From NCBI GenBank assembly GCA_041170435.1, contig JBEAYU010000045.1:7975-71974 (forward strand): a DNA stretch of 64,000 nucleotides. Direction: 5' to 3'. Below the pieces are notes generated by a model. The model saw nothing but the letters and a program-made list of their open reading frames with translations, did no database searches and was not told the origin of the DNA. The translations under genes were made by a program, and so were the position numbers. Below, piece by piece: positions 2,912 through 62,455 of this stretch (positions within the stretch are counted from its first letter, which is position 1; the number at the start of each line of letters is the position of its first letter). The DNA is from Bacteroidota bacterium. Its GTDB lineage: Bacteria; Bacteroidota; Ignavibacteria; Kapaibacteriales; Kapaibacteriaceae.

Positions 2912-3303
2912 GTATGCGCATTCTGCTCGACACGCATGCTCTACTCTGGTACGATGCCGAACCGGACAGGCTCAGTGCGATCAGTCGCGAGATAATCCAA
3001 CAGAGAGACACGATCGTCCTCTGTTCCGCGGCATCGATCTATGAGCTATGGCAGAAGGCCATGAAACCGAAATCGCCAATCCGACCTGAACATGTCGAGT
3101 CAGTGCTTCGGCATATTCCCGTGTATGGCTTTACACTCCTTCCGATCGAAGTCAACCATGCAGCAGATGCGGCAGTTCTCAAATGGTCAAATCGTGACCC
3201 CTTTGATCGAATCATCGCAGCCCAAGCGATCGCCGAGAATTGTGCCATCATCACGTGCGATTCGGCATTCAAGAGCCTGAAGCAGGTGGAGATACTCTGG
3301 TGA
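2908..3303 (+). CDS. vapC: Type II toxin, VapC family (PIN domain)
   Basis: ILLDTHALLWY N-terminal acidic PIN signature, about 130 aa, overlaps the antitoxin stop. Its TGA stop lies inside the first heptamer of the downstream repeat array. Confidence 0.8.
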   Translation: MSMRILLDTHALLWYDAEPDRLSAISREIIQQRDTIVLCSAASIYELWQKAMKPKSPIRPEHVESVLRHIPVYGFTLLPIEVNHAADAAVLKWSNRDPFDRIIAAQAIAENCAIITCDSAFKSLKQVEILW

Positions 3304-3339
3304 CAGGTTACAGGTGACGGGTTACAGGTGACGGGTTAC
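3298..3339. repeat. Six tandem heptamers GGTKACR (alternating GGTTACA / GGTGACG)
   Basis: Direct reading: ggtgaca ggttaca ggtgacg ggttaca ggtgacg ggttaca. The vapC TGA stop (3301-3303) is embedded in unit 1. Confidence 0.95.
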
Positions 3340-3351
3340 AGGCGTGCAATC

Positions 3352-3776
3352 GTCATTCCCGCGAAAGCGGGAATCCATACATTATAGTAGGGGCGAGACG
3401 CAGTCTCGGCCGATGGTTTGCGCACAACGCCTGACGCGTCATGCTGCATAATTGCCCAGGGCTTTAGCCCTGGGAAAATAGGGGAGCCCCCTTCTACTAA
3501 TCATTTTCAAATCAATTCGATTCTATCTCTTATCCCAGGGCTTCAGCCATGGGAAAATAGAGCAAGAATGATTTGTTTGTGCTGGAATTGAAAGGGGGCT
3601 TGCCCCTCTTTCCCATGGCTGAAGCCATGGGAAGTTATGCGTTAAGATGGATCCCGGCCTGCGCCGGGATGACGGGGGTGCGCGATGAAGATGGATCCCG
3701 GCCTGCGCCGGGATGATGGTGATGGGTGCGGCCGAGAACAATGATGAATGCGGGCGAGACTGCGTCTCGCCCCTAC
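3352..3776. repeat. Repeat cluster A: at least 8 REP-like hairpin elements of several related families
   Basis: Hairpins read directly:
- 3352-3378: gtcattCCCGCGaaagCGCGGGaat-type (attcccgc gaaa gcgggaat)
- 3387-3411 and 3752-3776: GTAG-ggggcgagac...gtctcgcccc-CTAC
- 3455-3474, 3534-3553 and 3612-3631: cccaKggc-loop-gccMtggg
- 3647-3673 and 3691-3717: atggatCCCGGCctgcGCCGGGatga
No credible ORF. Confidence 0.9.
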
Positions 3777-11393: not shown

Positions 11394-11636
11394 CGTCATC
11401 CCGAGGAGGCCCGAACCGAAACCCAGAGCGAAGCGAAAGGGCAGTGAGGGGCGACGAGGGACCTCGCGATGAAGATGGATCCCGGCCTGCGCCGGGATGA
11501 CGGGGGTGCGCGATGAAGATGGATCCCGGCTTGCCCCCTCATTCCCATGGCTGAAGCCATGGGCAATTGTGCATTGAGATGGATCCCGGCCTGCGCCCTC
11601 GCTTCGCTCGGCGCTTCGGCCTAGGGATGATGGAGA
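11394..11636. repeat. Repeat cluster B: nested MITE-like palindromic composite
   Basis: The outer imperfect inverted arms are tcatcccgaggaggcccgaa...gagcgaagcgaaagggc (11394-11444) and gccctcgcttcgctc...ttcggcctagggatga (11592-11636). They enclose atggatcccggcctgcgccgggatgac (11475-11501), truncated copies at 11518-11530 and 11578-11600, and cccatggctgaagccatggg (11544-11563). Confidence 0.85.
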
Positions 11637-14794: not shown

Positions 14795-15732
14795 TGTCGG
14801 GCCATCATCATGAGCATGGTCATGATCATCACCATCATGGCCACCACCACGGGCATATCCATGAGCATTCGGACATTCGCCCCCTTCGCATTGCCGTAAC
14901 ACTCACCTCGGTGGTCTTTATCGCGCAGGTTGTCGGGGGCTTTCTCTCGGGTAGCCTCGCGCTGCTATCGGATGCGGGGCATGTGCTCGTCGACCTTGCA
15001 TCGCTACTCATTGCCTTCTTCGGGTTGCGCTTTGCCGCCAAGGCAAGGGGCGAGCATGATGTGCGCTATACGTTTGGGTTGCGCCGCGTGGAGATCCTGG
15101 CAGCACTCACAAACGGATTCTTGCTGATCGGCATCTGCATCTACATCGTCATTGAAGCGGTCAAGCGCATGGTAGGGCATGGTCACAGCCACGTCGACTC
15201 AGACCTGATGCTCTGGGTGGCCGTCGTTGGCTTTGTGGCCAACGCGATCAGCGCCATCTACCTGCACAAGTCCGAGCACATTACCACGCGCAGCGCATAT
15301 CTGCACGTGATGACGGACCTGATGTCGAGTCTTGGTGTGATCATCGCCGCTGTTGTGATCGAACTCACGGGCTGGGAGTTGATCGACCCGATCATTTCGA
15401 TCGCGATCGCCGTGATGATCACCCGCGGAGCCATTCGTGTGATCCGTCAAGCAGGGGTGATCCTTATGGAATCAGCCCCCTCGCAGATCTCTCCCGTCGA
15501 ACTTCGTGAGCGCGTCAGCTCCTTGCCCGGCATTGTCGATGTTCATGATGTCCATGTTTGGCAACTCGGCATGAACGAGTTCACGGCATCGTTGCACGTT
15601 GTCAGCGACGATCCTGCTGACGATGTGATCACACGTGTACGGCAGATGCTGAGCTCTACCTATGGTCTGTCTCACGTTACTGTTCAGGTGGAATCAACGG
15701 CGGCCGAGAGGGGAGAATGCGGCGCATGCTAA
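14794..15732 (+). CDS. Cation diffusion facilitator (CzcD/ZitB-like) metal efflux transporter
   Basis: His-rich N-terminus (HHHEHGHDHHHHGHHHGH), six TM helices, HVLVDLAS and HVMTDLMSS metal-site motifs, C-terminal cytoplasmic domain. Confidence 0.88.
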   Translation: MSGHHHEHGHDHHHHGHHHGHIHEHSDIRPLRIAVTLTSVVFIAQVVGGFLSGSLALLSDAGHVLVDLASLLIAFFGLRFAAKARGEHDVRYTFGLRRVEILAALTNGFLLIGICIYIVIEAVKRMVGHGHSHVDSDLMLWVAVVGFVANAISAIYLHKSEHITTRSAYLHVMTDLMSSLGVIIAAVVIELTGWELIDPIISIAIAVMITRGAIRVIRQAGVILMESAPSQISPVELRERVSSLPGIVDVHDVHVWQLGMNEFTASLHVVSDDPADDVITRVRQMLSSTYGLSHVTVQVESTAAERGECGAC

Positions 15733-16268
15733 CAACCGCTCGAGTTGACCCGTGGCTGCGGGCTTTCGTTGGCACGACATTCGTTGCTGCCGTGGTGCAG
15801 CTGATTCTCTCCAATGGCGATACGTTCACTGCGCGCCCCTTTGAGAGAATCTTCTCCAGCGTCGGTGTTGCAAGCGTGTATGCGTGCTACATGGCCGGAC
15901 GCTATTTCGGCACCAACAAGGCTAAGGCTGCACAGGGGGTATTCCTCTTCTGCGGGCTTTTCGCGTTGCTGCTCTCCGGCGCTCGCATGGCCGACACGGC
16001 GCTCGCCGAGTACTTGGTCTCAGCCCAGATCCTCGTACACGTAGCCTTGTCTATGATGTTCATCGGTATCAACGCCGGACTCAGCGGAGCTCTGGCCATG
16101 AATATCCTGCGCGTGCGCTCAGGACGTCGCAGCGGCATCCTCGAGATCCTCTCCGGCATCTCTGTTTCGCTGATGATGCTCTCGGTCCTCTTCCCGTGGC
16201 CGCATGAGATCCATGCTCCCGCCTGCGCCTTGATAACGGCTGTCTTTCAGCTCCTCGCACGACGATAA
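15717..16268 (+). CDS. Hypothetical polytopic membrane protein
   Basis: 183-aa ORF with about 5 predicted TM helices. 16-nt overlap with the CDF gene. No recognisable domain. Confidence 0.5.
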   Translation: MRRMLTTARVDPWLRAFVGTTFVAAVVQLILSNGDTFTARPFERIFSSVGVASVYACYMAGRYFGTNKAKAAQGVFLFCGLFALLLSGARMADTALAEYLVSAQILVHVALSMMFIGINAGLSGALAMNILRVRSGRRSGILEILSGISVSLMMLSVLFPWPHEIHAPACALITAVFQLLARR

Positions 16269-16280
16269 GGGGGCGCCTTT

Positions 16281-16306
16281 GTCATTCCCGCGAACGCGGG
16301 AATCCA
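16281..16306. repeat. REP-like hairpin (gtcattcccgcgaacgcgggaatcca)
   Basis: Same family as 3352-3378 and 21796-21822. Confidence 0.9.
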
Positions 16307-16328
16307 CACAACCGTATCTTCATCGCGC

Positions 16329-16513
16329 ATGGATCCCCGCTTTCGCGGGGATGACGAGGATGGATCCCCGCTTTCGCGGGGAAGACGAGGATGGATCCCC
16401 GCTTTCGCGGGGATGACGAGGATGGATCCCCGCTTTCGCGGGGATGACGAGGATGGATCCCCGCTTTCGCAGGGATGACGAGGATGGATCCCCGCTTTCG
16501 CAGGGATGACGAT
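16329..16513. repeat. Six contiguous 31-bp tandem units, each a hairpin (atggatCCCCGCtttcGCGGGGatgacgagg)
   Basis: Units start at 16329, 16360, 16391, 16422, 16453 and 16484. Units 5-6 share a stem mismatch (gcaggg) and unit 2 has gaagac. There are no spacers between units. Confidence 0.95.
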
Positions 16514-16517
16514 TGTA

Positions 16518-16552
16518 CCTGTAACCTGTAACCTGTAACCTGTAACCTGACC
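16518..16552. repeat. Heptamer array (CCTGTAA x4 plus CCTGACC) ending at the ATG of the next gene
   Basis: Direct reading. It is the reverse complement of the GGTTACA unit at 3298-3339. The ATG at 16553 follows immediately. Confidence 0.95.
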
Positions 16553-16882
16553 ATGTCCTACTACAACCCCACCGACCTGCCCAAGTTTGGCAACATCAGT
16601 CAGTACCAGCCGGAGCTGGCTGCGAAGTTCTTTGAATGGTATGGCGCCGTGTTTGAAGAGGGGGCGCTGACGCAGCGGGAGAAGTCGCTGATCGCTTTGG
16701 CCGTTGCACATGCGGTGCAGTGTCCGTATTGCATCGACGCCTACACGACGGACAGCTTGCAGAAGGGGTCGACGGAGCAGATGATGATGGAGGCAGTGCA
16801 TGTGGCTGCAGCCATCCGCGGTGGAGCGTCGATGGTGCACGCCGTGCAGATGATGAACAAGGTCAACGAAGTGTCGATGTAG
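16553..16882 (+). CDS. AhpD-like / carboxymuconolactone decarboxylase family protein (arsenosugar-biosynthesis-associated peroxidase-like type)
   Basis: REKSLIALAVAHAVQCPYCIDAYT carries the CxxC of the AhpD fold. About 109 aa. Lies immediately upstream of an ArsS-type radical SAM gene, as I recall for this family. Confidence 0.75.
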   Translation: MSYYNPTDLPKFGNISQYQPELAAKFFEWYGAVFEEGALTQREKSLIALAVAHAVQCPYCIDAYTTDSLQKGSTEQMMMEAVHVAAAIRGGASMVHAVQMMNKVNEVSM

Positions 16883-16894
16883 GCCCCCTGACCC

Positions 16895-17938
16895 ATGGCA
16901 CTGGCAACAACGAGTCTTCAGAAACGGGGCGCGGCGCTGGCCGACGCTGACGAGCAGCTGCGCGTTCTGCGAGGCGGCAATGCGACGTCGTTTGCTGAGG
17001 CATTGCGTCCACACGGACTCATGCCCCTGCGTCCGCGCTCGCTTACCACGCTCCAGGTGAACGTGGGAAAGATGTGTAATCAGGCGTGTAAGCATTGTCA
17101 TGTTGATGCCGGACCCGACCGGCAAGAGATCATGACGCGTGAGACGATGCAGATGTGTCTTGACGCGGTCGATCGTCTCGGTACGCAGATCGTCGATCTC
17201 ACCGGCGGTGCCCCGGAGATGAATCCGGACTTCCGATGGTTCGTCGAAGAACTTACGCGTCGGGATGTGAAAGTGATGGTGCGTTGCAACCTGACGATCA
17301 TCGTGGCGAATCCGAAGTACAACGATCTGCCGCAGTTCTTTGCCACGCACCGCGTGCATGTGGTGTCGTCGCTGCCCTTCTATGACGCAAGCCATACCGA
17401 CCGACAGCGGGGAGGGGGCGTGTTTGAGGACTCCATCATGGCGCTGCGCATGCTCAATGATGCGGGCTACGGTAAGGATGGAACGGGGCTGGTGATCGAC
17501 CTCGTGTACAATCCGCTTGGTGCGCTGCTGCCCGGTCCGCAAGCATCGCTGGAGAAGGAATTCAAACGTCAGCTCCTGACGAATCATAACGTTGTATTCA
17601 ATGCTTTGCACTGCATCACCAACATGCCGATCTCGCGCTTCCTTGAGTTTCTGGTGAACTCGGGCAACTACGAGCGCTACATGAGCACACTGGTAACTTC
17701 CTTCAATCCGGTTGCTGCTGAGAATGTGATGTGCCGTGATATGATCTCGGTAGGATGGGACGGCCAGGTGTATGACTGCGACTTCAATCAGATGCTGGAT
17801 CTTGCGGTTGCAAGCCCCCTTCGACATATCTCCGACGTGTCCGCTGAAGCGCTGATGGGTCGTGCAATAGTCATCGACCGTCACTGCTTTGGATGCACGG
17901 CCGGATCCGGCTCCTCGTGCGGAGGGCAGACCGCATGA
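16895..17938 (+). CDS. arsS: Radical SAM / Cys-rich domain protein, ArsS type (Cys rather than Sec form)
   Basis: CNQACKHC gives the CxxxCxxC cluster. The C-terminal CFGCTAGSGSSCGGQ tail is characteristic of this family. The position reported as Sec in some homologues is TGC (Cys) here. Confidence 0.8.
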   Translation: MALATTSLQKRGAALADADEQLRVLRGGNATSFAEALRPHGLMPLRPRSLTTLQVNVGKMCNQACKHCHVDAGPDRQEIMTRETMQMCLDAVDRLGTQIVDLTGGAPEMNPDFRWFVEELTRRDVKVMVRCNLTIIVANPKYNDLPQFFATHRVHVVSSLPFYDASHTDRQRGGGVFEDSIMALRMLNDAGYGKDGTGLVIDLVYNPLGALLPGPQASLEKEFKRQLLTNHNVVFNALHCITNMPISRFLEFLVNSGNYERYMSTLVTSFNPVAAENVMCRDMISVGWDGQVYDCDFNQMLDLAVASPLRHISDVSAEALMGRAIVIDRHCFGCTAGSGSSCGGQTA

Positions 17939-20968: not shown

Positions 20969-22264
20969 ATGCACATCCTCATCATCGGTAACGGCATTGC
21001 CGGAGCAACGCTCGCACGCAGGCTACGAGAGCTGGGGCGAGGCGATGAGCCACTGGTGACGCTGATCTCCGATGAAGCCCCTTATCACTTCTCGCGTCCG
21101 GCTATGATGTACATCTCCACCGGACAGCTCAGGTACGAGCATACGAAGTCATACCCGGATGGGTCGTGGGATGACCTCGGCATCAAACGCATGCAGGGTC
21201 GGGTAGAGCGCATCGATGCCGAAGCGCAGAGGGTGCACATGAGCGATGGCACGACGCTCGAGGCCGATGTGATCGTCATTGCCACGGGATCGAAGCCAAA
21301 CATTCCGGCTGGACTCAACACCACGCTCCGTGGCGTGCATACCTACACGCGCTTGGAGGACGTGGCTGCGCTTGATGAATCCTTGAAGGGGGCTCTCCAC
21401 GGCGTGGTCATTGGTGGCGGTCTCATCGGTGTAGAAGCTGCCGAGATCGTGTCCACGCACATGCACAAGCGAGCGGGGAGCACTATCACGTGTGTGGTTC
21501 GCGAAGACGGATTCTATGCCAATGTGCTGCCAAGTGAGGAATCGCAGATCATCACCGAGCATTTGCGGCAGCACGGCATCAGCGTGCGGGTTTCCTCAAC
21601 GGTGGTATCCATCGACGATCAGGATGGTGATGGTCGCGTTGATCATGTGACGTTCAGCGATGGCTCCGTGATCCCGGCCAACGTGGTCGTTGTGGCCACT
21701 GGAGTGGTTCCGCGAACGGAGCTTGCCAAGGAGGCGGGAATTGCGTGCGGCGAAGGTATTGTCGTTGACGATCGATTTCGGACGAGTCATACGAAGTCAT
21801 TCCCGCAAGAGCGGGAATCCATTATCTACGCCATCGGCGACTGTGCTCAGCTGCCATGGGGTGTGCGGCCGACGTGGTATGCCGGACGCATGCATGCAGA
21901 GCATTTGGCCCACATTCTCGCAGGACATGACGAGCCGTTTCGCGATCCCATCGATTATAACAGCGCGAGGTTCTTTGATCTTGACTGGTCTACCTATGGC
22001 CACGTGCCCGCTGACGCGAGCGCAGTCAATAGCATTCTTCTCGTGGATACCGATGGCCAACGTTGTGTGCGAATCGTTCATGATGCCCACAGGTGCGTCA
22101 TCGGTATCCATGCGATTGGTCTGCGTTTGCATCAGACCGCGTGTGAGCAATGGATCGCGCAGCGCCAGCCCCTTGACGAAGCACTCAAAGAGTTGAATGC
22201 GGTGATGTTCAATGCTGAGTTTGTGCCGGCATTCGTTTCGGCATTTAGAGGAGAGGCGCAGTGA
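20969..22264 (+). CDS. FAD-dependent pyridine nucleotide-disulfide oxidoreductase family protein
   Basis: N-terminal ILIIGNGIAGA dinucleotide fold, second Rossmann VVIGGGLIGVEAA, C-terminal IYAIGDCA motif. Confidence 0.85.
   Translation: MHILIIGNGIAGATLARRLRELGRGDEPLVTLISDEAPYHFSRPAMMYISTGQLRYEHTKSYPDGSWDDLGIKRMQGRVERIDAEAQRVHMSDGTTLEADVIVIATGSKPNIPAGLNTTLRGVHTYTRLEDVAALDESLKGALHGVVIGGGLIGVEAAEIVSTHMHKRAGSTITCVVREDGFYANVLPSEESQIITEHLRQHGISVRVSSTVVSIDDQDGDGRVDHVTFSDGSVIPANVVVVATGVVPRTELAKEAGIACGEGIVVDDRFRTSHTKSFPQERESIIYAIGDCAQLPWGVRPTWYAGRMHAEHLAHILAGHDEPFRDPIDYNSARFFDLDWSTYGHVPADASAVNSILLVDTDGQRCVRIVHDAHRCVIGIHAIGLRLHQTACEQWIAQRQPLDEALKELNAVMFNAEFVPAFVSAFRGEAQ
21796..21822. repeat. REP-like hairpin copy (gtcattcccgcaagagcgggaatccat) inside the oxidoreductase CDS, in frame
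   Basis: Same element as 3352-3378 and 16281-16306. It translates as SFPQERESI, immediately before the conserved IYAIGD motif. Confidence 0.85.
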
Positions 22265-23370
22265 CAGGTATGCAGCATCCGGTGCAGATCATCCTTCCGA
22301 AGGGGGCTGGGCGGTCTGCGACGATGACGAGCTCGTTAGAGCAGCGTCCATGGCTGCGCTATATGCTGGCCGCTTTGATGACCGGCTTCTACGTCTGTGT
22401 TTACTGGTTCCCATCTGTGCTCGATCCGTTGACGCGATCCGCTGATTGCCTGTCACAAGCACTGCGACAACGTCCGGCCGATGTATGGTTTGTGTACGGT
22501 ACCATCTACACGATTGCCGTGGTTCTCTTTGGCATACGATCACTTCTGCGAAACGGTCACGAGCGATACCACCGCTACCGAATCCTGGTGCTCATGTTTG
22601 TGCAGTGCATTGCGGCGTATCTCATTCCCGCCATGCTTGTGCGCAGCGGAAGGGGCGAGTTCTACTTCTCCTACTTCTGGCCGCTCAAGCCCGAGTATCT
22701 CTTCCCATCATCCGTTACGACGATGATGTCGAGTCACGACGCTCTCATGACCTTTGCTGCTTGGTGGAGCATCATCCTGTTGGTTCTTGCCACGCCCCTT
22801 CTCACCTACTTCTATGGCAAGCGTTGGTACTGCTCGTGGGTTTGCGGCTGTGGAGCACTAGCCGAGACGGTCGGTGATGACCTTCGACACCTGAGTAGCA
22901 CGTCGAAGGACAGCTGGACGCTTGAGCGGTGGACCATCTATCCGGTCTTGGGAATCATCGCGATCATCACGATCCTGCTCTGGCAACAGCATGTTGATCC
23001 AAGTCCACAACTGTCGGGCGTTGTCAGCCATGCCAACCGCATCTACGGCTTTGTCATCGGCGGACTCTTCTCCGGCGTCATCGGCGTGGGCTTCTACCCG
23101 ATCTTCGGTGCCCGTATCTGGTGTCGCTTCGGATGTCCCATGGCCGCCATCCTGGGCATCCTTCAGAAGTACGCCTCTCGCTTCCGCATCGAGGTCAACC
23201 CCGGACAATGCATCTCCTGCGGCAACTGCAGCACCTACTGCGAGATGGGTATCGATGTGCGTTCCTACGCCGAAAGGGGCGAAACCATCAAGCGCGCCTC
23301 CTGCGTCGGCTGCGGCGTGTGCTCCAGCGTATGCCCCAGAGGAGTGTTGAGAGTGACGAGTGACGAGTGA
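22261..23370 (+). CDS. Polytopic membrane 4Fe-4S ferredoxin-type protein (NapH/MauN-like)
   Basis: Cys clusters CSWVCGCG, CRFGCP, CISCGNCSTYC and CVGCGVCSSVCP. Several TM helices. GTGA overlap with the upstream oxidoreductase. The stop lies within the heptamer array. Confidence 0.8.
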   Translation: MTGMQHPVQIILPKGAGRSATMTSSLEQRPWLRYMLAALMTGFYVCVYWFPSVLDPLTRSADCLSQALRQRPADVWFVYGTIYTIAVVLFGIRSLLRNGHERYHRYRILVLMFVQCIAAYLIPAMLVRSGRGEFYFSYFWPLKPEYLFPSSVTTMMSSHDALMTFAAWWSIILLVLATPLLTYFYGKRWYCSWVCGCGALAETVGDDLRHLSSTSKDSWTLERWTIYPVLGIIAIITILLWQQHVDPSPQLSGVVSHANRIYGFVIGGLFSGVIGVGFYPIFGARIWCRFGCPMAAILGILQKYASRFRIEVNPGQCISCGNCSTYCEMGIDVRSYAERGETIKRASCVGCGVCSSVCPRGVLRVTSDE

Positions 23371-23420
23371 CGAGTGACAAGTGACGAGTGACGAGTGACA
23401 AGTGACGAGTGACGAGTTAC
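23353..23420. repeat. Heptamer array (GTGACGA/GTGACAA), 9 units plus a partial
   Basis: Direct reading. The TGA stop of the 4Fe-4S gene (23368-23370) is inside unit 3. Confidence 0.95.
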
Positions 23421-23817: not shown

Positions 23818-23843
23818 AGAGCATTTAGGCAGCAAAACGTGAC

Positions 23844-23983
23844 GTCACTCGTCACTGGTCACTGGTCACTCGTCACTCGTCACTGGTCACTCGTCACTTG
23901 TCACTCGTCACTTGTCACTTGTCACTTGTCACTCGTCACTCGTCACTCGTCACTTGTCACTCGTCACTTGTCACTTGTGACTC
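23844..23983. repeat. Heptamer array (GTCACTC/GTCACTT/GTCACTG), 20 units; reverse complement of the 23353-23420 array
   Basis: Direct reading, unit by unit. A palindrome GTGACGTCAC at 23839-23848 forms the inner junction. The POT gene stop (23988-23990) lies just outside. Confidence 0.95.
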
Positions 23984-23987
23984 GTCC

Positions 23988-60484: not shown

Positions 60485-61804
60485 ATGACCTCGCGTCGAT
60501 CGATGTTACGCTCGTTAGCGGCACTAGGGCCGACCGCACTGTTCGCCTCCGAGTCGCTTGCTGCGGTAACGCAGTGGCTGCCGACGGCATCACCTCATGT
60601 CCCCGCATCCGTGGTCGCTGAGGACGAGGATTTCTGGTCTACCGTGCAACAGGCATTCGATGTTGACAGGTCGATCATCAACCTCAATAACGGCGGAGTG
60701 TCCCCGTCGCCCCGTACCGTTCAGGCTGCCTTTCGGCGGTATACGGACCAGGCAAACAACATGCCCGCCTATGAGATGTGGCGCCACCAAGAGCCGCAGG
60801 TCGAGTCCATTCGCGAAGGCTTGGCAGACATTTTCGCCGTCAGCCCCGAAGAGATCGCCATAACACGCAATGCCAGCGAGGCCCTCGAAACACTCCAACT
60901 CGGAATGCCTCTTGAACGGGGCGATGAAGTATTGACCACGACGCATGATTATCCGAGGATGCTCACGACGTGGGAGCAGCGAGCCCGCCGCGATGGGATT
61001 GTGATCAAGAAGGTGGGTTTCCCGACGCCGCTGAAGCGACGCCAAGATTTTGTCGATGCGATCGAAGCCGGTATCACGGACCGCACAAAGGTCATCCACA
61101 TCTCCCACGTCGTCTTTCTCACCGGTCAGATCTTGCCTGTTCGTGACGTATGCCGCCTGGCAGCTCGCCGGAACATCCGTTGTATCGTCGATGGAGCGCA
61201 TTCGTTTGCCCACTTTCCGTTCACCCAGAAGGATCTCGAGTGCGAGTACTTCGGGACGTCCTTGCACAAGTGGTTCCTTGGTCCGATCGGCACAGGGATG
61301 CTGTACGTCAAGAAGGAGCGCATCGCCGATGTGTGGCCTCTGATGGCGGCACCCAAAGACATGGATGCCAACATCAGGAAGTTTGAGGAGATTGGAACGC
61401 ATCCGGCGGCCATGCATAACGCACTGATAGAATCGATCGCATTCCATCGTGCCATGGGGGTGGAACGCAAGGCCGCCCGTCTGCGCCATCTTCATACCGT
61501 ATGGACCGATCAGCTGGGGAAGTTCGACAACGTCCGCTTTCTCACCGATATCGCGGACGACGAGAATCAATGCGGACTTCGCTTGGTGCACATCGAAGGG
61601 ACGGATCCCGGCAAGGTGTCTTCCTACCTTCTCGAAAAGCATAGGATCTTTACCGTATCGATCGGTCACGAAGATTTCAAGGGGCTTCGGGTTGCCCCTT
61701 CAGTGTACACAACGGTCGACGAGATGATGCGGTTTTCCAAGGCCATGAGCATGATCGCCCGTGGCGAGGCCGGATCTGCCGTGTCAGTTGATGTGAAGGG
61801 CTGA
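60485..61804 (+). CDS. Class V aminotransferase-fold PLP enzyme with Tat-type signal
   Basis: Twin-arginine N-terminus TSRRSMLRSLAALG. Class V fold with the SLHKW Lys motif. Confidence 0.8.
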   Translation: MTSRRSMLRSLAALGPTALFASESLAAVTQWLPTASPHVPASVVAEDEDFWSTVQQAFDVDRSIINLNNGGVSPSPRTVQAAFRRYTDQANNMPAYEMWRHQEPQVESIREGLADIFAVSPEEIAITRNASEALETLQLGMPLERGDEVLTTTHDYPRMLTTWEQRARRDGIVIKKVGFPTPLKRRQDFVDAIEAGITDRTKVIHISHVVFLTGQILPVRDVCRLAARRNIRCIVDGAHSFAHFPFTQKDLECEYFGTSLHKWFLGPIGTGMLYVKKERIADVWPLMAAPKDMDANIRKFEEIGTHPAAMHNALIESIAFHRAMGVERKAARLRHLHTVWTDQLGKFDNVRFLTDIADDENQCGLRLVHIEGTDPGKVSSYLLEKHRIFTVSIGHEDFKGLRVAPSVYTTVDEMMRFSKAMSMIARGEAGSAVSVDVKG

Positions 61805-62260
61805 CAATCCGCGGGTCGTATCGCCAATGTCCGCAAACGGTGGCGGGCTGTTGGGGCGGAAAACTTCGTCAAGCTCATCCTCAAGCGTGCGCGTCTCGTG
61901 AAACCGGTCCTGGTCGCGCACGAAGCTCGCCATGATCTCCAGGTGCCATGGTGGTAGCAGTGTTACGTGCACGGCCTCGTCCCACTCGAACGAGCGAAGG
62001 TGAGCCCCCTGACTGCGAAGGGTGCGCCGAAGATCCTCCAGTACCTCCCCGATGAAGTCTGGAATGCTCGCCTCCTCATTCACGGAAAGCAGAATGTGCA
62101 CATGGTCCTCGCGGGTGTGCACTGCAGCCGAGCGCAGTTTGTGCCGTTGTGCCGTCCGGTCGACCGTCTGCTCTAAGAGGTGGTGAATGCCGCGGGGAAT
62201 CATGAGTCCCTCTCCGGGAATGATGATCAGGTGAAGCCCCAGCCCTTTATATGCTTGCAT
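61784..62260 (-). CDS. IS200/IS605 Y1-transposase-like (RAYT-like) protein with Phe at the expected catalytic Tyr position
   Basis: HUH motif in EDHVHILLSV. The C-terminal helix reads SFVRDQDRFHE where the family has YIxNQxxHH. Start at Met 62260 is assumed. 21-nt convergent overlap with the aminotransferase. Confidence 0.5.
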   Translation of the reverse strand: MQAYKGLGLHLIIIPGEGLMIPRGIHHLLEQTVDRTAQRHKLRSAAVHTREDHVHILLSVNEEASIPDFIGEVLEDLRRTLRSQGAHLRSFEWDEAVHVTLLPPWHLEIMASFVRDQDRFHETRTLEDELDEVFRPNSPPPFADIGDTTRGLSALHIN

Positions 62261-62455
62261 TGTGGTGCCCAAGTTGAACGTGAGAGAAAGTTGGTTTGCA
62301 TCCACTTCGTGTTTCTTCGGTGGCAGAACGTGACATGAGCCGTCAAGCCGGGCCAACATCCGTGACATCTGGGCGTCGTAAATTGCCGCTCCGAGGACGC
62401 CCAGTCGGTGCGCACGGGTAGTTCCACTTCACAACAGCGATAGAGGCCCCTTACT

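What the first reader, a model, noticed from the sequence alone, without database searches (positions are those of the whole stretch)
16281..16552. The whole 284-bp spacer upstream of the radical-SAM cluster is built from repeats: one hairpin, six 31-bp tandem hairpin units, then a heptamer array ending at the ATG
**Composition of the spacer.** Between the stop of the membrane-protein gene (16268) and the ATG at 16553 there is almost no unique sequence. The order is:
- gtcattcccgcgaacgcgggaatcca
- six head-to-tail copies of atggatCCCCGCtttcGCGGGGatgacgagg; units 5 and 6 share the same stem mismatch, which suggests recent local duplication
- CCTGTAA x4

**Consequences.** Each unit can form an 8-bp GC-rich hairpin in RNA or single-stranded DNA. 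A promoter for the downstream cluster must therefore lie within or upstream of the array, or the cluster is co-transcribed through six consecutive stem-loops. This resembles enterobacterial BIME/REP clusters that modulate mRNA stability, termination or DNA gyrase/IHF binding, but with a different sequence family and a strictly tandem organisation.
Basis: seen in the sequence. Interest (0 to 1): 0.6.

Follow-up and report, generated by a model that had tools for sequence, protein, structure and literature searches.

The report
Known hairpin repeats, tandemly amplified, plus heptamers
The spacer is real but is built from two already-described kinds of bacterial non-coding repeat: the widespread "CGTC-1 / dRS3 / NTS" DNA hairpin, which small Ssn nucleases recognise, here copied head-to-tail six times, and a 7-base repeat run of the kind known to sit right before start codons. 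It is therefore an unusual arrangement of known elements, not a special switch for the radical-SAM genes.

Summary
**Observation.** Confirmed: one hairpin, six 31-bp head-to-tail hairpin units and 4.7 CCTGTAA heptamers fill the 284-bp spacer and end 3 nt before the ATG. An independent metagenome assembly shows the same six units.

**Hairpins.**
- The single hairpin and the six units are one family in opposite orientations: (C/T)GTC-ATYCCCGC-GAAA-GCGGGRAT-CCA.
- The genome holds at least 122 copies; 112 lie outside called genes, and the stem changes compensate each other.
- The family fits the published CGTC-1 REP definition (Neisseria dRS3, Rickettsia RPE-6). It matches the NTS consensus, the single-strand DNA target of Ssn GIY-YIG nucleases, at 27 of 28 bases.
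- No RAYT transposase flanks it. In unrelated genomes and in two congeners, small GIY-YIG genes sit between two copies.
- This genome has only a divergent Ssn-like gene.

**What is unusual.** The head-to-tail amplification is atypical: the sister species has one unit at this site, and tandem runs are negligible for this family elsewhere.

**Heptamers.** The array belongs to the start-codon-abutting class described for TAACTGA repeats. Its position is conserved across the genus, but the unit sequence is not.

**Verdict.** The same composite precedes unrelated housekeeping genes, so a cluster-specific regulatory role is unlikely. This is a new member of known kinds, of modest interest.

The parts
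15717..16268 (+). Upstream gene (183 aa, no Pfam or NCBIfam match). Its stop codon lies 15 nt before the first stem.
   Evidence: ORF list, self-trained gene calls, no family hit. Orthologs lie upstream of the AhpD-like gene in G001, G015 and G006 only.
16280..16307 (+). CGTC-1 / NTS-type hairpin copy in + orientation: TGTC tag, 8-bp stem ATTCCCGC/GCGGGAAT, loop GAAC, CCA tail. This is the left arm of the doublet.
   Evidence: Folds at -13.5 kcal/mol. Together with unit 1 it can form a long hairpin of -41.3 kcal/mol, z = -7.6.
16308..16328 (.). Inter-arm spacer of the doublet (unique sequence). The arms start 50 bp apart, within the family's usual 45-65 bp.
16329..16511 (-). Six head-to-tail copies (31-bp period) of the same hairpin family in - orientation. 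The bottom strand reads CGTCATCCCCGCGAAAGCGGGGATCCAT plus a 3-nt linker. Units 5 and 6 carry a stem mismatch and unit 2 a tag change.
   Evidence: TRF 5.9 copies, 98% matches. Unit list. Census hits at 16331-16510. -15.7 kcal/mol per unit. Same six units in an independent assembly. One unit at the orthologous site in G003.
16517..16549 (+). Heptamer array (CCTGTAA, the same as TAACCTG) x4.7. It is C-rich and G-poor on the mRNA-sense strand, carries TAA in all three frames, and ends 3 nt before the ATG.
   Evidence: Genome-wide class of 29 such arrays. Orientation rule. Unstructured leader at -2.3 kcal/mol, z = +0.6. Array at the same position with other units in congeners.
16553..16882 (+). 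AhpD-like gene (TIGR04169, arsenosugar biosynthesis-associated peroxidase-like protein), the first gene after the spacer.
   Evidence: 185.5 bits against a cut-off of 120, residues 2-109 of 109.
16895..17938 (+).
   Evidence: 436 bits against a cut-off of 300. Pfam Radical_SAM plus DUF3641.

Best explanation
The spacer combines two unrelated, genome-wide classes of non-coding repeat.

**1. Hairpin block.** The hairpins are CGTC-1 REPs, also known as Neisseria dRS3 / NTS or 'Ssn-related motifs'. They have a (C/T)GTC tag, an 8-bp stem starting with AT, a GAAA loop and a CCA tail.
- Published work shows this motif is bound as single-stranded DNA, on one strand only, by small single-domain GIY-YIG 'Ssn' nucleases. 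These cut a few nucleotides upstream of the tag. Their genes typically sit between two inverted copies of the motif.
- At this site an ordinary convergent doublet (hairpin 1 plus unit 1) was already present in the common ancestor with the sister species.
- I infer that the right arm plus its 3-nt linker was then amplified head-to-tail to six copies in this lineage, by replication slippage or unequal exchange between direct repeats.

**2. Heptamer run.** It belongs to the class of direct heptamer repeats that lie in a fixed orientation immediately upstream of start codons. That array is older than the hairpins at this site.

**Likely consequences (inferred, not shown).**
- The hairpin block is tolerated selfish or neutral DNA in a spacer that is probably transcribed through.
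- It lacks U-tracts, so it should not terminate transcription. As RNA it would form up to seven stable stem-loops that could slow 3'-5' decay of the upstream message.
- The G-poor, unstructured heptamer leader keeps the start codon accessible and closes all three upstream frames.
- Nothing ties the structure specifically to arsenosugar genes.
For: **Family identity**
- Hairpin 1 equals the reverse complement of the units.
- The genome census gives 122 copies with compensatory stem variants; positions 5/20 and 8/17 covary.
- 112 of 122 copies lie outside called genes, which cover 90% of the genome. Copies are about 4-fold depleted in divergent spacers.
- The consensus C-GTC-ATYCCCGC-GAAA-GCGGGRAT-CCA-T fits the CGTC-1 definition (PMC3733652). 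It matches the NTS consensus CGTCATTCCCGCGMAVGCGGGAATCYRG at 27 of 28 positions.
- The gonococcal sequence in PMC7593972 carries CGTCATTCCCGCGAAAGCGGGAATCT. BLAST finds at least 40 places per N. gonorrhoeae record.

**Spread**
- The exact 25-mer occurs in at least 120 stretches from more than 12 phyla.
- Eight unrelated genomes hold 49-718 copies each.

**Link to Ssn, not RAYT**
- Four of those eight genomes have no Y1 transposase, and no Y1 gene there is flanked by the family.
- Seven of eight have 95-125 aa GIY-YIG homologs, mostly bracketed '+copy gene -copy' at 10-40 bp.
- Congeners G003 and G006 have such bracketed genes, 55-69% identical to proteobacterial ones.
- G000 has a 99-aa Ssn-like gene with the catalytic Tyr, Tyr, Arg and Glu, flanked by CGTCAT-tagged hairpins.
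- CGTCATYC occurs 500 times in the genome against 63 for the reversed control.

**Local amplification**
- Every array has its own linker.
- G003 has one unit with the same GATTGT junction at this site, and one against two units upstream of ndk.
- An independent assembly differs only at unit 6.

**Heptamers**
- The genome has 76 arrays.
- All 19 start-abutting arrays are C-rich on the sense strand, and 19 of 21 stop-abutting arrays are G-rich.
- The abutted start codons were verified against full-length profiles.
- The same behaviour is published for TAACTGA repeats (PMC4679880).

**No terminator** was found and the leader is unstructured.
Against: - The Ssn type that is bracketed by this hairpin family is absent from the G000 assembly. 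G000's own Ssn-like gene is only 36-39% identical to that type, and its flanking hairpin variant has just three copies, all local. Who acts on the 122 copies in this genome, if anyone, is therefore open.
- Across the genus, presence of a small GIY-YIG gene and hairpin copy number correlate only loosely. These are fragmented assemblies.
- Head-to-tail runs are described as negligible for CGTC REPs and were absent from 80 loci of other phyla. 'Ordinary slippage' therefore does not explain why this genus makes them at seven or more loci.
- Hairpins and heptamer arrays share spacers more often than a length-weighted null predicts: 14 against 5.6 +/- 2.1, with 0 of 5000 permutations reaching 14. 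That hints at a link which this explanation treats as coincidence of preferred sites.
- No transcript data could be examined.
Confidence: 0.75

Rival explanations
1. The array has been co-opted as an RNA-level element. It is co-transcribed with the upstream genes, and its seven stem-loops protect the upstream mRNA from 3'-5' exonucleases, or create a processing site that uncouples expression of the two halves of the operon. The first hairpin, 15 nt after the stop codon, may also dampen translation of the upstream gene, as reported for E. coli REPs close to stop codons.
For: - The flanking genes are co-directional and closely packed.
- No promoter-like or terminator-like site lies on the + strand of the spacer.
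- The stems are strong, at -16 kcal/mol each.
- REP copies favour co-directional and convergent spacers, as reported for REPs thought to act as RNA (PMC3733652).
- The first stem starts 15 nt after the stop codon. The REP translation effect comes from Liang et al. 2015, which I know only as cited in PMC5581495.
Against: - There are no transcript data.
- Unit number varies (6, 1 or 0) among relatives that keep both genes.
- Two of the six units carry destabilising mismatches.
- The published protein partner of this motif does not bind RNA.
- In several congeners a different gene lies upstream, so co-transcription is not a conserved feature.
Confidence: 0.25
2. One reading: the array is a dedicated regulatory or insulator element for the downstream radical-SAM (arsenosugar) cluster.
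For: The array sits directly upstream of the cluster's first gene and fills the spacer. Every promoter must lie upstream of it or inside it.
Against: - The same hairpin-then-heptamer-then-ATG composite lies in front of unrelated genes: ndk, gcvP, an aminotransferase gene and a tRNA.
- The hairpin family has 122 copies genome-wide.
- Congeners with the same cluster have one or no hairpin units.
Confidence: 0.07
3. The hairpins are REPINs mobilised by a REP-associated tyrosine transposase (RAYT) encoded in the genome.
For: - The genome has two intact Y1 transposase genes.
- Copies of the family lie 130-240 bp outside the C21 gene on both sides, in inverted orientation.
- The doublets look like REPINs.
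Against: - The C21 gene and its orthologs are immediately flanked by a different palindrome, CCCCGGGCCAAGGCCCGGGG, with co-varying hairpins in more distant orthologs.
- The C15 gene has a third palindrome family.
- Congeners with 21-49 copies have no intact Y1 gene.
- Unrelated genomes with 139-370 copies have none at all.
- The literature states that CGTC REPs lack a dedicated transposase.
Confidence: 0.04
4. The array is an assembly artefact: collapsed or expanded repeats, or a chimeric join.
For: The genome is a 93-contig draft, and 14 copies of the family lie at contig ends.
Against: An independent assembly from another sample gives the same six units with one SNP. Unit-specific variants anchor the order.
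Confidence: 0.03

Closest known systems
CGTC-1 family of CGTC-tagged REPs (Di Nocera, De Gregorio and Rocco 2013, PMC3733652), which includes Neisseria dRS3 and Rickettsia RPE-6
   Same: Unpaired CGTC (or TGTC) tag, 8-bp stem beginning with AT, 4-nt loop and CCA tail. High copy number, mostly between co-directional and convergent genes. Inverted dimers 20-100 bp apart, often with different stems in the two arms. No dedicated tyrosine transposase.
   Different: That paper reports head-to-tail dimers as negligible and grouped elements as rare. Here, and in congeners, head-to-tail runs of 3-9 units with 29-39 bp periods occur at seven or more loci. The host is an uncultured Kapabacteria-like lineage according to earlier notes, which I did not verify.
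NTS / Ssn-related motifs with SsnA GIY-YIG single-strand DNA nucleases (Chenal et al. 2025, PMC11893778)
   Same: 27 of 28 positions of the NTS consensus match. Small single-domain GIY-YIG genes are bracketed by two inverted copies in unrelated genomes and in two congeners. The taxa with large expansions are the same (Rickettsia, Povalibacter, Devosia, sphingomonads).
   Different: In this genome the bracketed Ssn type is not in the assembly. The only Ssn-like gene belongs to a divergent clade with its own local hairpin variant. No activity, transformation phenotype or competence is known for this organism.
Neisserial intergenic mosaic elements (NIME arrays: dRS3 alternating with RS elements; PMC1797815)
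   Same: Arrays of the same hairpin, and variable unit number between related genomes at syntenic sites.
   Different: NIME arrays are mosaics of many different 19-214 bp RS elements. Here the linker is a single 3-14 nt sequence repeated identically within each array, which indicates simple tandem duplication. No link to surface-protein genes was seen.
E. coli REP / BIME clusters and Pseudomonas REPINs with RAYT transposases (PMC3116915, PMC5581495)
   Same: Extragenic GC-rich palindromes, inverted doublets able to form long hairpins, and clustering in transcribed spacers.
   Different: The tag is CGTC, not GTAG. No RAYT is associated with this family. BIMEs alternate orientation, whereas this array is head-to-tail.
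Intergenic TAACTGA heptamer direct repeats of Beggiatoaceae, Cyanobacteria and Bacteroidetes (MacGregor 2015, PMC4679880)
   Same: Heptamer direct repeats of a few to tens of copies in 'forward' orientation, ending about 1-5 nt before start codons. Stop codons in all three frames, no Shine-Dalgarno sequence, housekeeping genes downstream, and occasional reversed arrays right after stop codons.
   Different: The unit is TAACCTG (with TCACCTG, AAAACCC and GTCACTC classes also present), not TAACTGA. Here the unit is typical of the species rather than of the locus, and arrays co-occur with CGTC-1 hairpins.

Membership tests
CGTC-1 REP (Di Nocera 2013) | Unpaired 5' tag CGTC (TGTC and CCTC variants allowed) | tested here: met
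   Position -1 is C in 106 of 118 copies, followed by an invariant GTC. Hairpin 1 has TGTC.
CGTC-1 REP (Di Nocera 2013) | 8-bp stem beginning with A-T, 4-nt loop, short CCA tail | tested here: met
   Consensus ATYCCCGC-GAAA-GCGGGRAT-CCA. The fold shows 8 pairs and a 4-nt loop.
CGTC-1 REP (Di Nocera 2013) | High-copy, extragenic, mainly between co-directional and convergent genes | tested here: met
   122 copies, 112 outside genes. Density per 10 kb is 2.2 in co-directional, 2.6 in convergent and 0.6 in divergent spacers.
CGTC-1 REP (Di Nocera 2013) | Predominantly inverted dimers, with head-to-tail dimers negligible | tested here: not met
   Inverted doublets exist, but this genome has head-to-tail runs of 3-9 units at seven loci. 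Elsewhere 46 of 62 neighbouring pairs are convergent and there are no runs of three or more. This concerns organisation, not sequence membership.
NTS / SRM-Ssn system (Chenal 2025) | Match to the oriented NTS consensus CGTCATTCCCGCGMAVGCGGGAATCYRG | tested here: met
   27 of 28 positions match, comparing the consensus with the text.
NTS / SRM-Ssn system (Chenal 2025) | Genome encodes a single-domain Ssn (about 94 aa, GIY-YIG) with catalytic Tyr, Tyr and Glu | tested here: met
   C78:27660-27956, 99 aa, PF01541 at 53.8 bits. Conserved VYI, LYVG, R..H and REK in the alignment. It belongs to a clade different from the homologs bracketed by this hairpin.
NTS / SRM-Ssn system (Chenal 2025) | The ssn gene is bracketed by copies of the motif | tested here: inconclusive
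   In G000 the gene is flanked by CGTCAT-tagged hairpins of a variant sequence, not by the dispersed family. The feature is met for this family in G003, G006 and 7 of 8 unrelated genomes. No such gene is in the G000 assembly.
NTS / SRM-Ssn system (Chenal 2025) | Strand-specific binding and cleavage of single-stranded DNA upstream of the tag | not testable with these tools
   This needs purified protein and oligonucleotides. The predicted cut for unit 6 falls at the junction with the heptamer array on the bottom strand.
REPIN / RAYT system | A single-copy Y1 transposase gene directly flanked by the same REP | tested here: not met
   The Y1 genes of G000 are flanked by other palindromes. Genomes rich in this hairpin lack Y1 genes.
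E. coli BIME | GTAG-tagged Y and Z REPs in alternating orientation with defined linker motifs | tested here: not met
   The tag is CGTC, there are six direct units, and the linker is a single 3-nt sequence.
Start-codon-proximal heptamer direct repeats (MacGregor 2015) | Direct heptamer repeats in forward orientation ending within a few nt of a start codon, with stops in three frames and no SD | tested here: met
   The array ends 3 nt before the verified ATG. All 19 start-abutting arrays are in the C-rich sense orientation. TAA occurs in each unit. SD use is weak genome-wide, 23% against 11% in shuffles.
CRISPR array | Repeats separated by unique spacers of similar length | tested here: not met
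   The 'spacers' are an identical 3-nt linker and the period is 31 bp.

The most novel reading that the evidence does not exclude
In this genus, nicking by an Ssn-type nuclease just upstream of the CGTC tag may itself drive repeat growth.

- Nicking would produce the head-to-tail hairpin runs, which are otherwise almost unknown for this family. It would also favour expansion of the heptamer array that lies exactly at the predicted cut site.
- The resulting unit would be a structured hairpin block followed by a G-poor, three-frame-stop, unstructured heptamer leader that ends at the ATG. It would behave as a portable 5' module retained in front of genes without a Shine-Dalgarno sequence.
- Heptamer units are typical of the species rather than of the locus. 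That would then reflect a trans-acting factor, either a nuclease or an RNA-binding protein, whose specificity drifts between species.
Probability: 0.12. Interest if true: 0.65.

Novelty: new member of a known kind. Interest (0 to 1): 0.3.

Why it matters
- The finding adds an uncultured Kapabacteria-like lineage to the hosts of the CGTC-1 / NTS hairpin family.
- It reproduces, with independent data, the association of that hairpin with small GIY-YIG nuclease genes and not with RAYT transposases.
- Practically, it warns annotators that this spacer, and the phantom ORFs read through it, are repeat DNA and not a regulatory device of the arsenosugar genes.
- Three points may deserve a specialist's look. 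One is the head-to-tail amplification, which the literature calls negligible for this family. The second is the statistically supported co-occurrence of the hairpins with start-codon-abutting heptamer arrays. The third is the species-typical (not locus-typical) heptamer unit, which is hard to explain by local slippage alone.

Tried and rejected
- **RAYT link.** I first took the C21 Y1 transposase to be the partner of this hairpin, because copies lie on both sides of it. Comparison with orthologs showed that its immediate, conserved flanks are another palindrome, so I withdrew that.
- **IS110-type recombinase** (the dRS3-targeting enzyme of neisserial phages): none in the genome.
- **Unbiased neighbour search.** Clustering ORFs within 600 bp of 80 cross-phylum copies found only phantom ORFs through the repeat. 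It could not find ssn, because only 1-3 copies per genome flank that gene.
- **Rfam.** Only sub-threshold hits, such as DUF3577 RNA at 31 bits against 42.6, which I take as chance matches to stacked hairpins.
- **Promoter and terminator scan.** Nothing on the + strand of the spacer. The sigma-70 consensus may not suit this lineage.
- **Strain variation.** Exact-protein look-up gave one other contig. A metagenome scan anchored on the gene start gave none.
- **Y/Z-like arm dimorphism.** Arms with different stems are frequent (8 of 10 doublets here, 17 of 36 elsewhere) but this is not a rule.
- **Literature search** for the peptide strings produced by phantom translation: no hits.
- **CRISPR and assembly artefact:** both rejected.
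Full report
**1. Observation**

The spacer between the stop codon at 16266-16268 and the ATG at 16553 reads as described.
- Tandem Repeats Finder reports 5.9 copies of a 31-bp unit at 16329-16512 (98% matches) and 4.7 copies of ACCTGTA at 16517-16549.
- Units 5 and 6 share a G-to-A stem mismatch, and unit 2 has a flank change.
- An intact unit folds into an 8-bp stem with a 4-nt loop at -15.7 kcal/mol. The mismatch units fold at -9.5 kcal/mol. The whole spacer folds better than all 200 shuffles.
- The ATG is the true start of a TIGR04169 AhpD-like protein (residues 2-109 of a 109-position profile). ArsS (TIGR04167) follows it.
- An independent JGI metagenome contig carries the same six units and heptamers. 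Its only difference is that unit 6 lacks the mismatch. The structure is therefore real.

**2. One family, two orientations**

The single hairpin (GTCATTCCCGCGAACGCGGGAATCC) is the same element as the reverse complement of the units (GTCATCCCCGCGAAAGCGGGGATCC).

In the 2.48-Mb, 93-contig genome I found 122 copies at three or fewer substitutions.
- The stem variants compensate each other: T...A, C...G and CCGGC...GCCGG.
- The conserved element is 28 nt: C-GTC-ATYCCCGC-GAAA-GCGGGRAT-CCA-T. Positions 5/20 and 8/17 covary.
- A self-trained gene caller (1844 genes, 90% coding) places 112 of 122 copies outside genes.
- Copies are about four-fold rarer per kb in divergent spacers than in co-directional or convergent ones.

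Neighbouring copies form convergent doublets and also head-to-tail runs. Examples are 6 x 31 bp here, 3 + 9 x 39 bp on C52, 6 x 38 bp at the end of C40, and several triplets. Each run has its own linker repeated in every unit. That points to local duplication of unit plus linker, not repeated insertion.

**3. What the family is**

I first suspected a RAYT-mobilised REP, because copies lie on both sides of a Y1 transposase gene on C21. Three results ruled this out.
- Orthologs of that gene in four congeners are flanked directly by a different palindrome, CCCCGGGCCAAGGCCCGGGG (54 copies in G000). More distant orthologs carry co-varying hairpins.
- The second Y1 gene has a third palindrome family.
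- Congeners with 21-49 copies of the finding's family have no intact Y1 gene.

A scan of one genome per species found the exact 25-mer in at least 120 stretches from more than a dozen phyla.
- Eight of those genomes hold 49-718 copies each.
- Four of the eight have no Y1 gene at all, and no Y1 gene there is flanked by the element.

The literature then settled the identity.
- The gonococcal pilE-upstream sequence printed in PMC7593972 contains CGTCATTCCCGCGAAAGCGGGAATCT with an inverted partner. This is the dRS3 repeat of neisserial NIME arrays (PMC1797815).
- Earlier notes of this scan pointed me to two papers, which I read and tested.
- Di Nocera et al. 2013 define CGTC-1 REPs by a CGTC tag, an 8-bp stem starting with AT, a 4-nt loop and a CCA tail. 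The family includes dRS3 and Rickettsia RPE-6, is mostly organised as inverted dimers with 'HT dimers negligible', and has no dedicated transposase. The finding's family meets every sequence criterion.
- Chenal et al. 2025 define the oriented NTS consensus CGTCATTCCCGCGMAVGCGGGAATCYRG. They show that the 94-aa GIY-YIG protein SsnA binds it only as single-stranded DNA, on one strand, and cuts a few nucleotides upstream. It does not act on RNA or dsDNA. ssn genes are typically bracketed by the motif. The family here matches 27 of 28 positions.

**4. My own test of the Ssn link**

- G000 has one small GIY-YIG gene (C78:27660-27956, 99 aa). It has the conserved Tyr, Tyr, Arg and Glu.
- It is flanked on both sides by CGTCAT-tagged hairpins of a variant sequence. 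That variant has only three copies, all local.
- Homologs occur in 7 of the 8 unrelated genomes, including three of the four that lack Y1 genes.
- Most of those homologs are bracketed '+copy, gene, -copy' at 10-40 bp.
- In the genus, G003 and G006 have such bracketed genes. G006 shows [+copy]-gene-[-copy x 4, 37-bp period], the same one-arm amplification as in the finding.
- The bracketed proteins of G003 and G006 are 55-69% identical to proteobacterial ones, but only 36-39% identical to the G000 type. Hairpin and nuclease therefore appear to travel together across phyla.
- No trace of the bracketed type exists in the G000 assembly. However, 14 copies of the hairpin lie at contig ends, so absence is not proven.
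- The element also occurs, unannotated, on chromids, on a few true plasmids and in one Microcystis jumbo phage.

**5. History at this site**

Upstream of the orthologous AhpD-like gene:
- G003 has a slightly degenerate + copy, one - copy with the same GATTGT junction, and five CCTGTAA units.
- G001 has other CGTCAT-tagged palindromes.
- The remaining congeners have none of this family.

Upstream of ndk, G000 has two units where G003 has one. The doublet therefore predates the G000/G003 split, and the extra units arose, or were kept, in the G000 lineage.

In other phyla 46 of 62 neighbouring pairs are convergent doublets whose starts lie 45-65 bp apart, and there are no same-strand runs of three or more. 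The first pair here is 50 bp apart. The head-to-tail runs are the atypical feature, and they recur in this genus.

**6. The heptamer array**

The genome has 76 period-7 arrays. The CCTGTAA class is the commonest, with 29.
- All 19 arrays that abut a start codon are C-rich and G-poor on the gene's sense strand.
- 19 of 21 arrays that abut a stop codon are G-rich on that gene's sense strand.
- The abutted starts belong to ndk, dnaE, trxB, nuoI, purK, gcvP and others. They agree with full-length curated profiles, so this is not an artefact of ORF calling.
- MacGregor 2015 described this behaviour for TAACTGA repeats in Beggiatoaceae, Cyanobacteria and Bacteroidetes: forward orientation, ending about 1 nt before start codons, three-frame stops, and no Shine-Dalgarno sequence.
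- Shine-Dalgarno use is weak in this genome. The heptamer leader plus the first codons is unstructured, at -2.3 kcal/mol with z = +0.6.

At the AhpD-like and ndk loci an array ending at the ATG is present in most of the genus, but the unit differs by species. CCTGTAA, CCTCACA, CCCAAAA, CCTAAAA and 8-mers all occur. Where both loci can be compared, the same species tends to use the same unit at both.

Hairpins and arrays share a spacer 14 times against 5.6 +/- 2.1 expected, with 0 of 5000 permutations reaching 14. Where both occur, the array always lies between the hairpins and the gene.

**7. How it most likely works**

*Shown:*
- the family identity;
- its genome-wide and cross-phylum spread;
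- its lack of a RAYT partner;
- its association with Ssn-type genes elsewhere;
- local tandem duplication;
- the older, position-conserved heptamer leader;
- the recurrence of the composite before unrelated genes.

*Inferred:*
- the block is tolerated repeat DNA in a transcribed spacer;
- without U-tracts it should not terminate transcription;
- as RNA it could stabilise the upstream message;
- the heptamer leader keeps the start codon accessible.

*Not known:*
- whether any Ssn acts on these copies in this organism;
- why this genus makes head-to-tail runs.

The predicted Ssn cut for unit 6 falls on the bottom strand at the junction with the heptamer array. That is suggestive but untested.

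**8. Verdict**

The finding is a new member of known kinds in a new host, with an unusual head-to-tail organisation. Interest is modest.

Noticed in passing
window 61784-62368 (-) = G000:C45:69758-70342: A Y1-transposase-like gene (PF01797, 30 bits) is conserved across the genus at similar scores. It has the HUH motif (DHVHI), but the catalytic Tyr position reads Phe (SFVRDQ against RYIRDQ in the intact paralog). No flanking hairpins. It may be a domesticated, catalytically altered Y1 protein.
   Followed up: partly
G000:C21:383-757 (L001/L016) and orthologs L017-L022: A single-copy IS200/RAYT-type gene is flanked in inverted orientation by CCCCGGGCCAAGGCCCGGGG (54 copies in the genome). Orthologs in G014 and G007 carry co-varying hairpins (CCCACGGCTGAAGCCGTGGG, ACCCAGGGCTTAAGCCCTGGGT). 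This looks like a clean RAYT-REP co-evolution series in a Bacteroidota-like lineage.
   Followed up: partly
G000:C15:1920-2426 and upstream (L002): A second intact Y1 transposase gene is preceded by about 107-bp tandem units, each containing the palindrome CGCCTAGGCCTTTGGCCTAGGCG.
   Followed up: no
window 21796-21820 (+): A copy of the CGTC-1 hairpin with three substitutions (GTCATTCCCGCAAGAGCGGGAATCC) lies inside the 431-aa ORF 20969-22264. It may be an in-frame intragenic REP of the kind reported for Rickettsia, or a chance match.
   Followed up: no
whole genome; in the window 3299-3342, 16517-16549, 23351-23417 and 23843-23986: Heptamer arrays follow a polarity rule: the 3' end of the C-rich strand is the end that touches a coding sequence (19 of 19 at start codons, 19 of 21 at stop codons). 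Several arrays fill a whole spacer or supply the stop codon of the upstream gene.
   Followed up: partly
loci L004-L015 (ahpD-like) and L178-L190 (ndk): The heptamer or octamer unit at orthologous start codons differs between species. G001 and G004 each use the same unit at both loci (CCCAAAA; CCTCACA/CCTCAAA), and G012 uses CCTAAAA at ndk. Local slippage alone would not be expected to give this.
   Followed up: partly
G000:C56:111355-111760: A tRNA gene is embedded in repeats: (GGTGACA)x11, a + hairpin, (CCTGTAA/CCCGTAA)x9, the tRNA, then a + hairpin and two - hairpins.
   Followed up: no
G000:C78:27660-28300: The Ssn-like GIY-YIG gene is preceded by three 55-bp tandem units, each with a CGTCAT-tagged hairpin (CGTCATCCTGAGCCGCGCAGCGGCGAAGGAC). 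Further upstream a CCTGTAA array abuts the start of a response-regulator-like gene on the other strand.
   Followed up: partly
L013 (G008), upstream of the AhpD-like gene: About ten tandem copies of a 13-mer (GGTCGGCGCGATA) lie directly upstream of an 8-mer array that ends at the ATG.
   Followed up: no
window 16361-16469 (-): Sub-threshold Rfam match to DUF3577 RNA (31 bits, gathering score 42.6). Probably a chance fit to stacked hairpins.
   Followed up: no
window 3352-3376, 3649-3717 and 11477-11501: Further copies of the same hairpin family lie in the window. They include the CCGGC...GCCGG stem variant and one copy next to a GGTGACA array.
   Followed up: no
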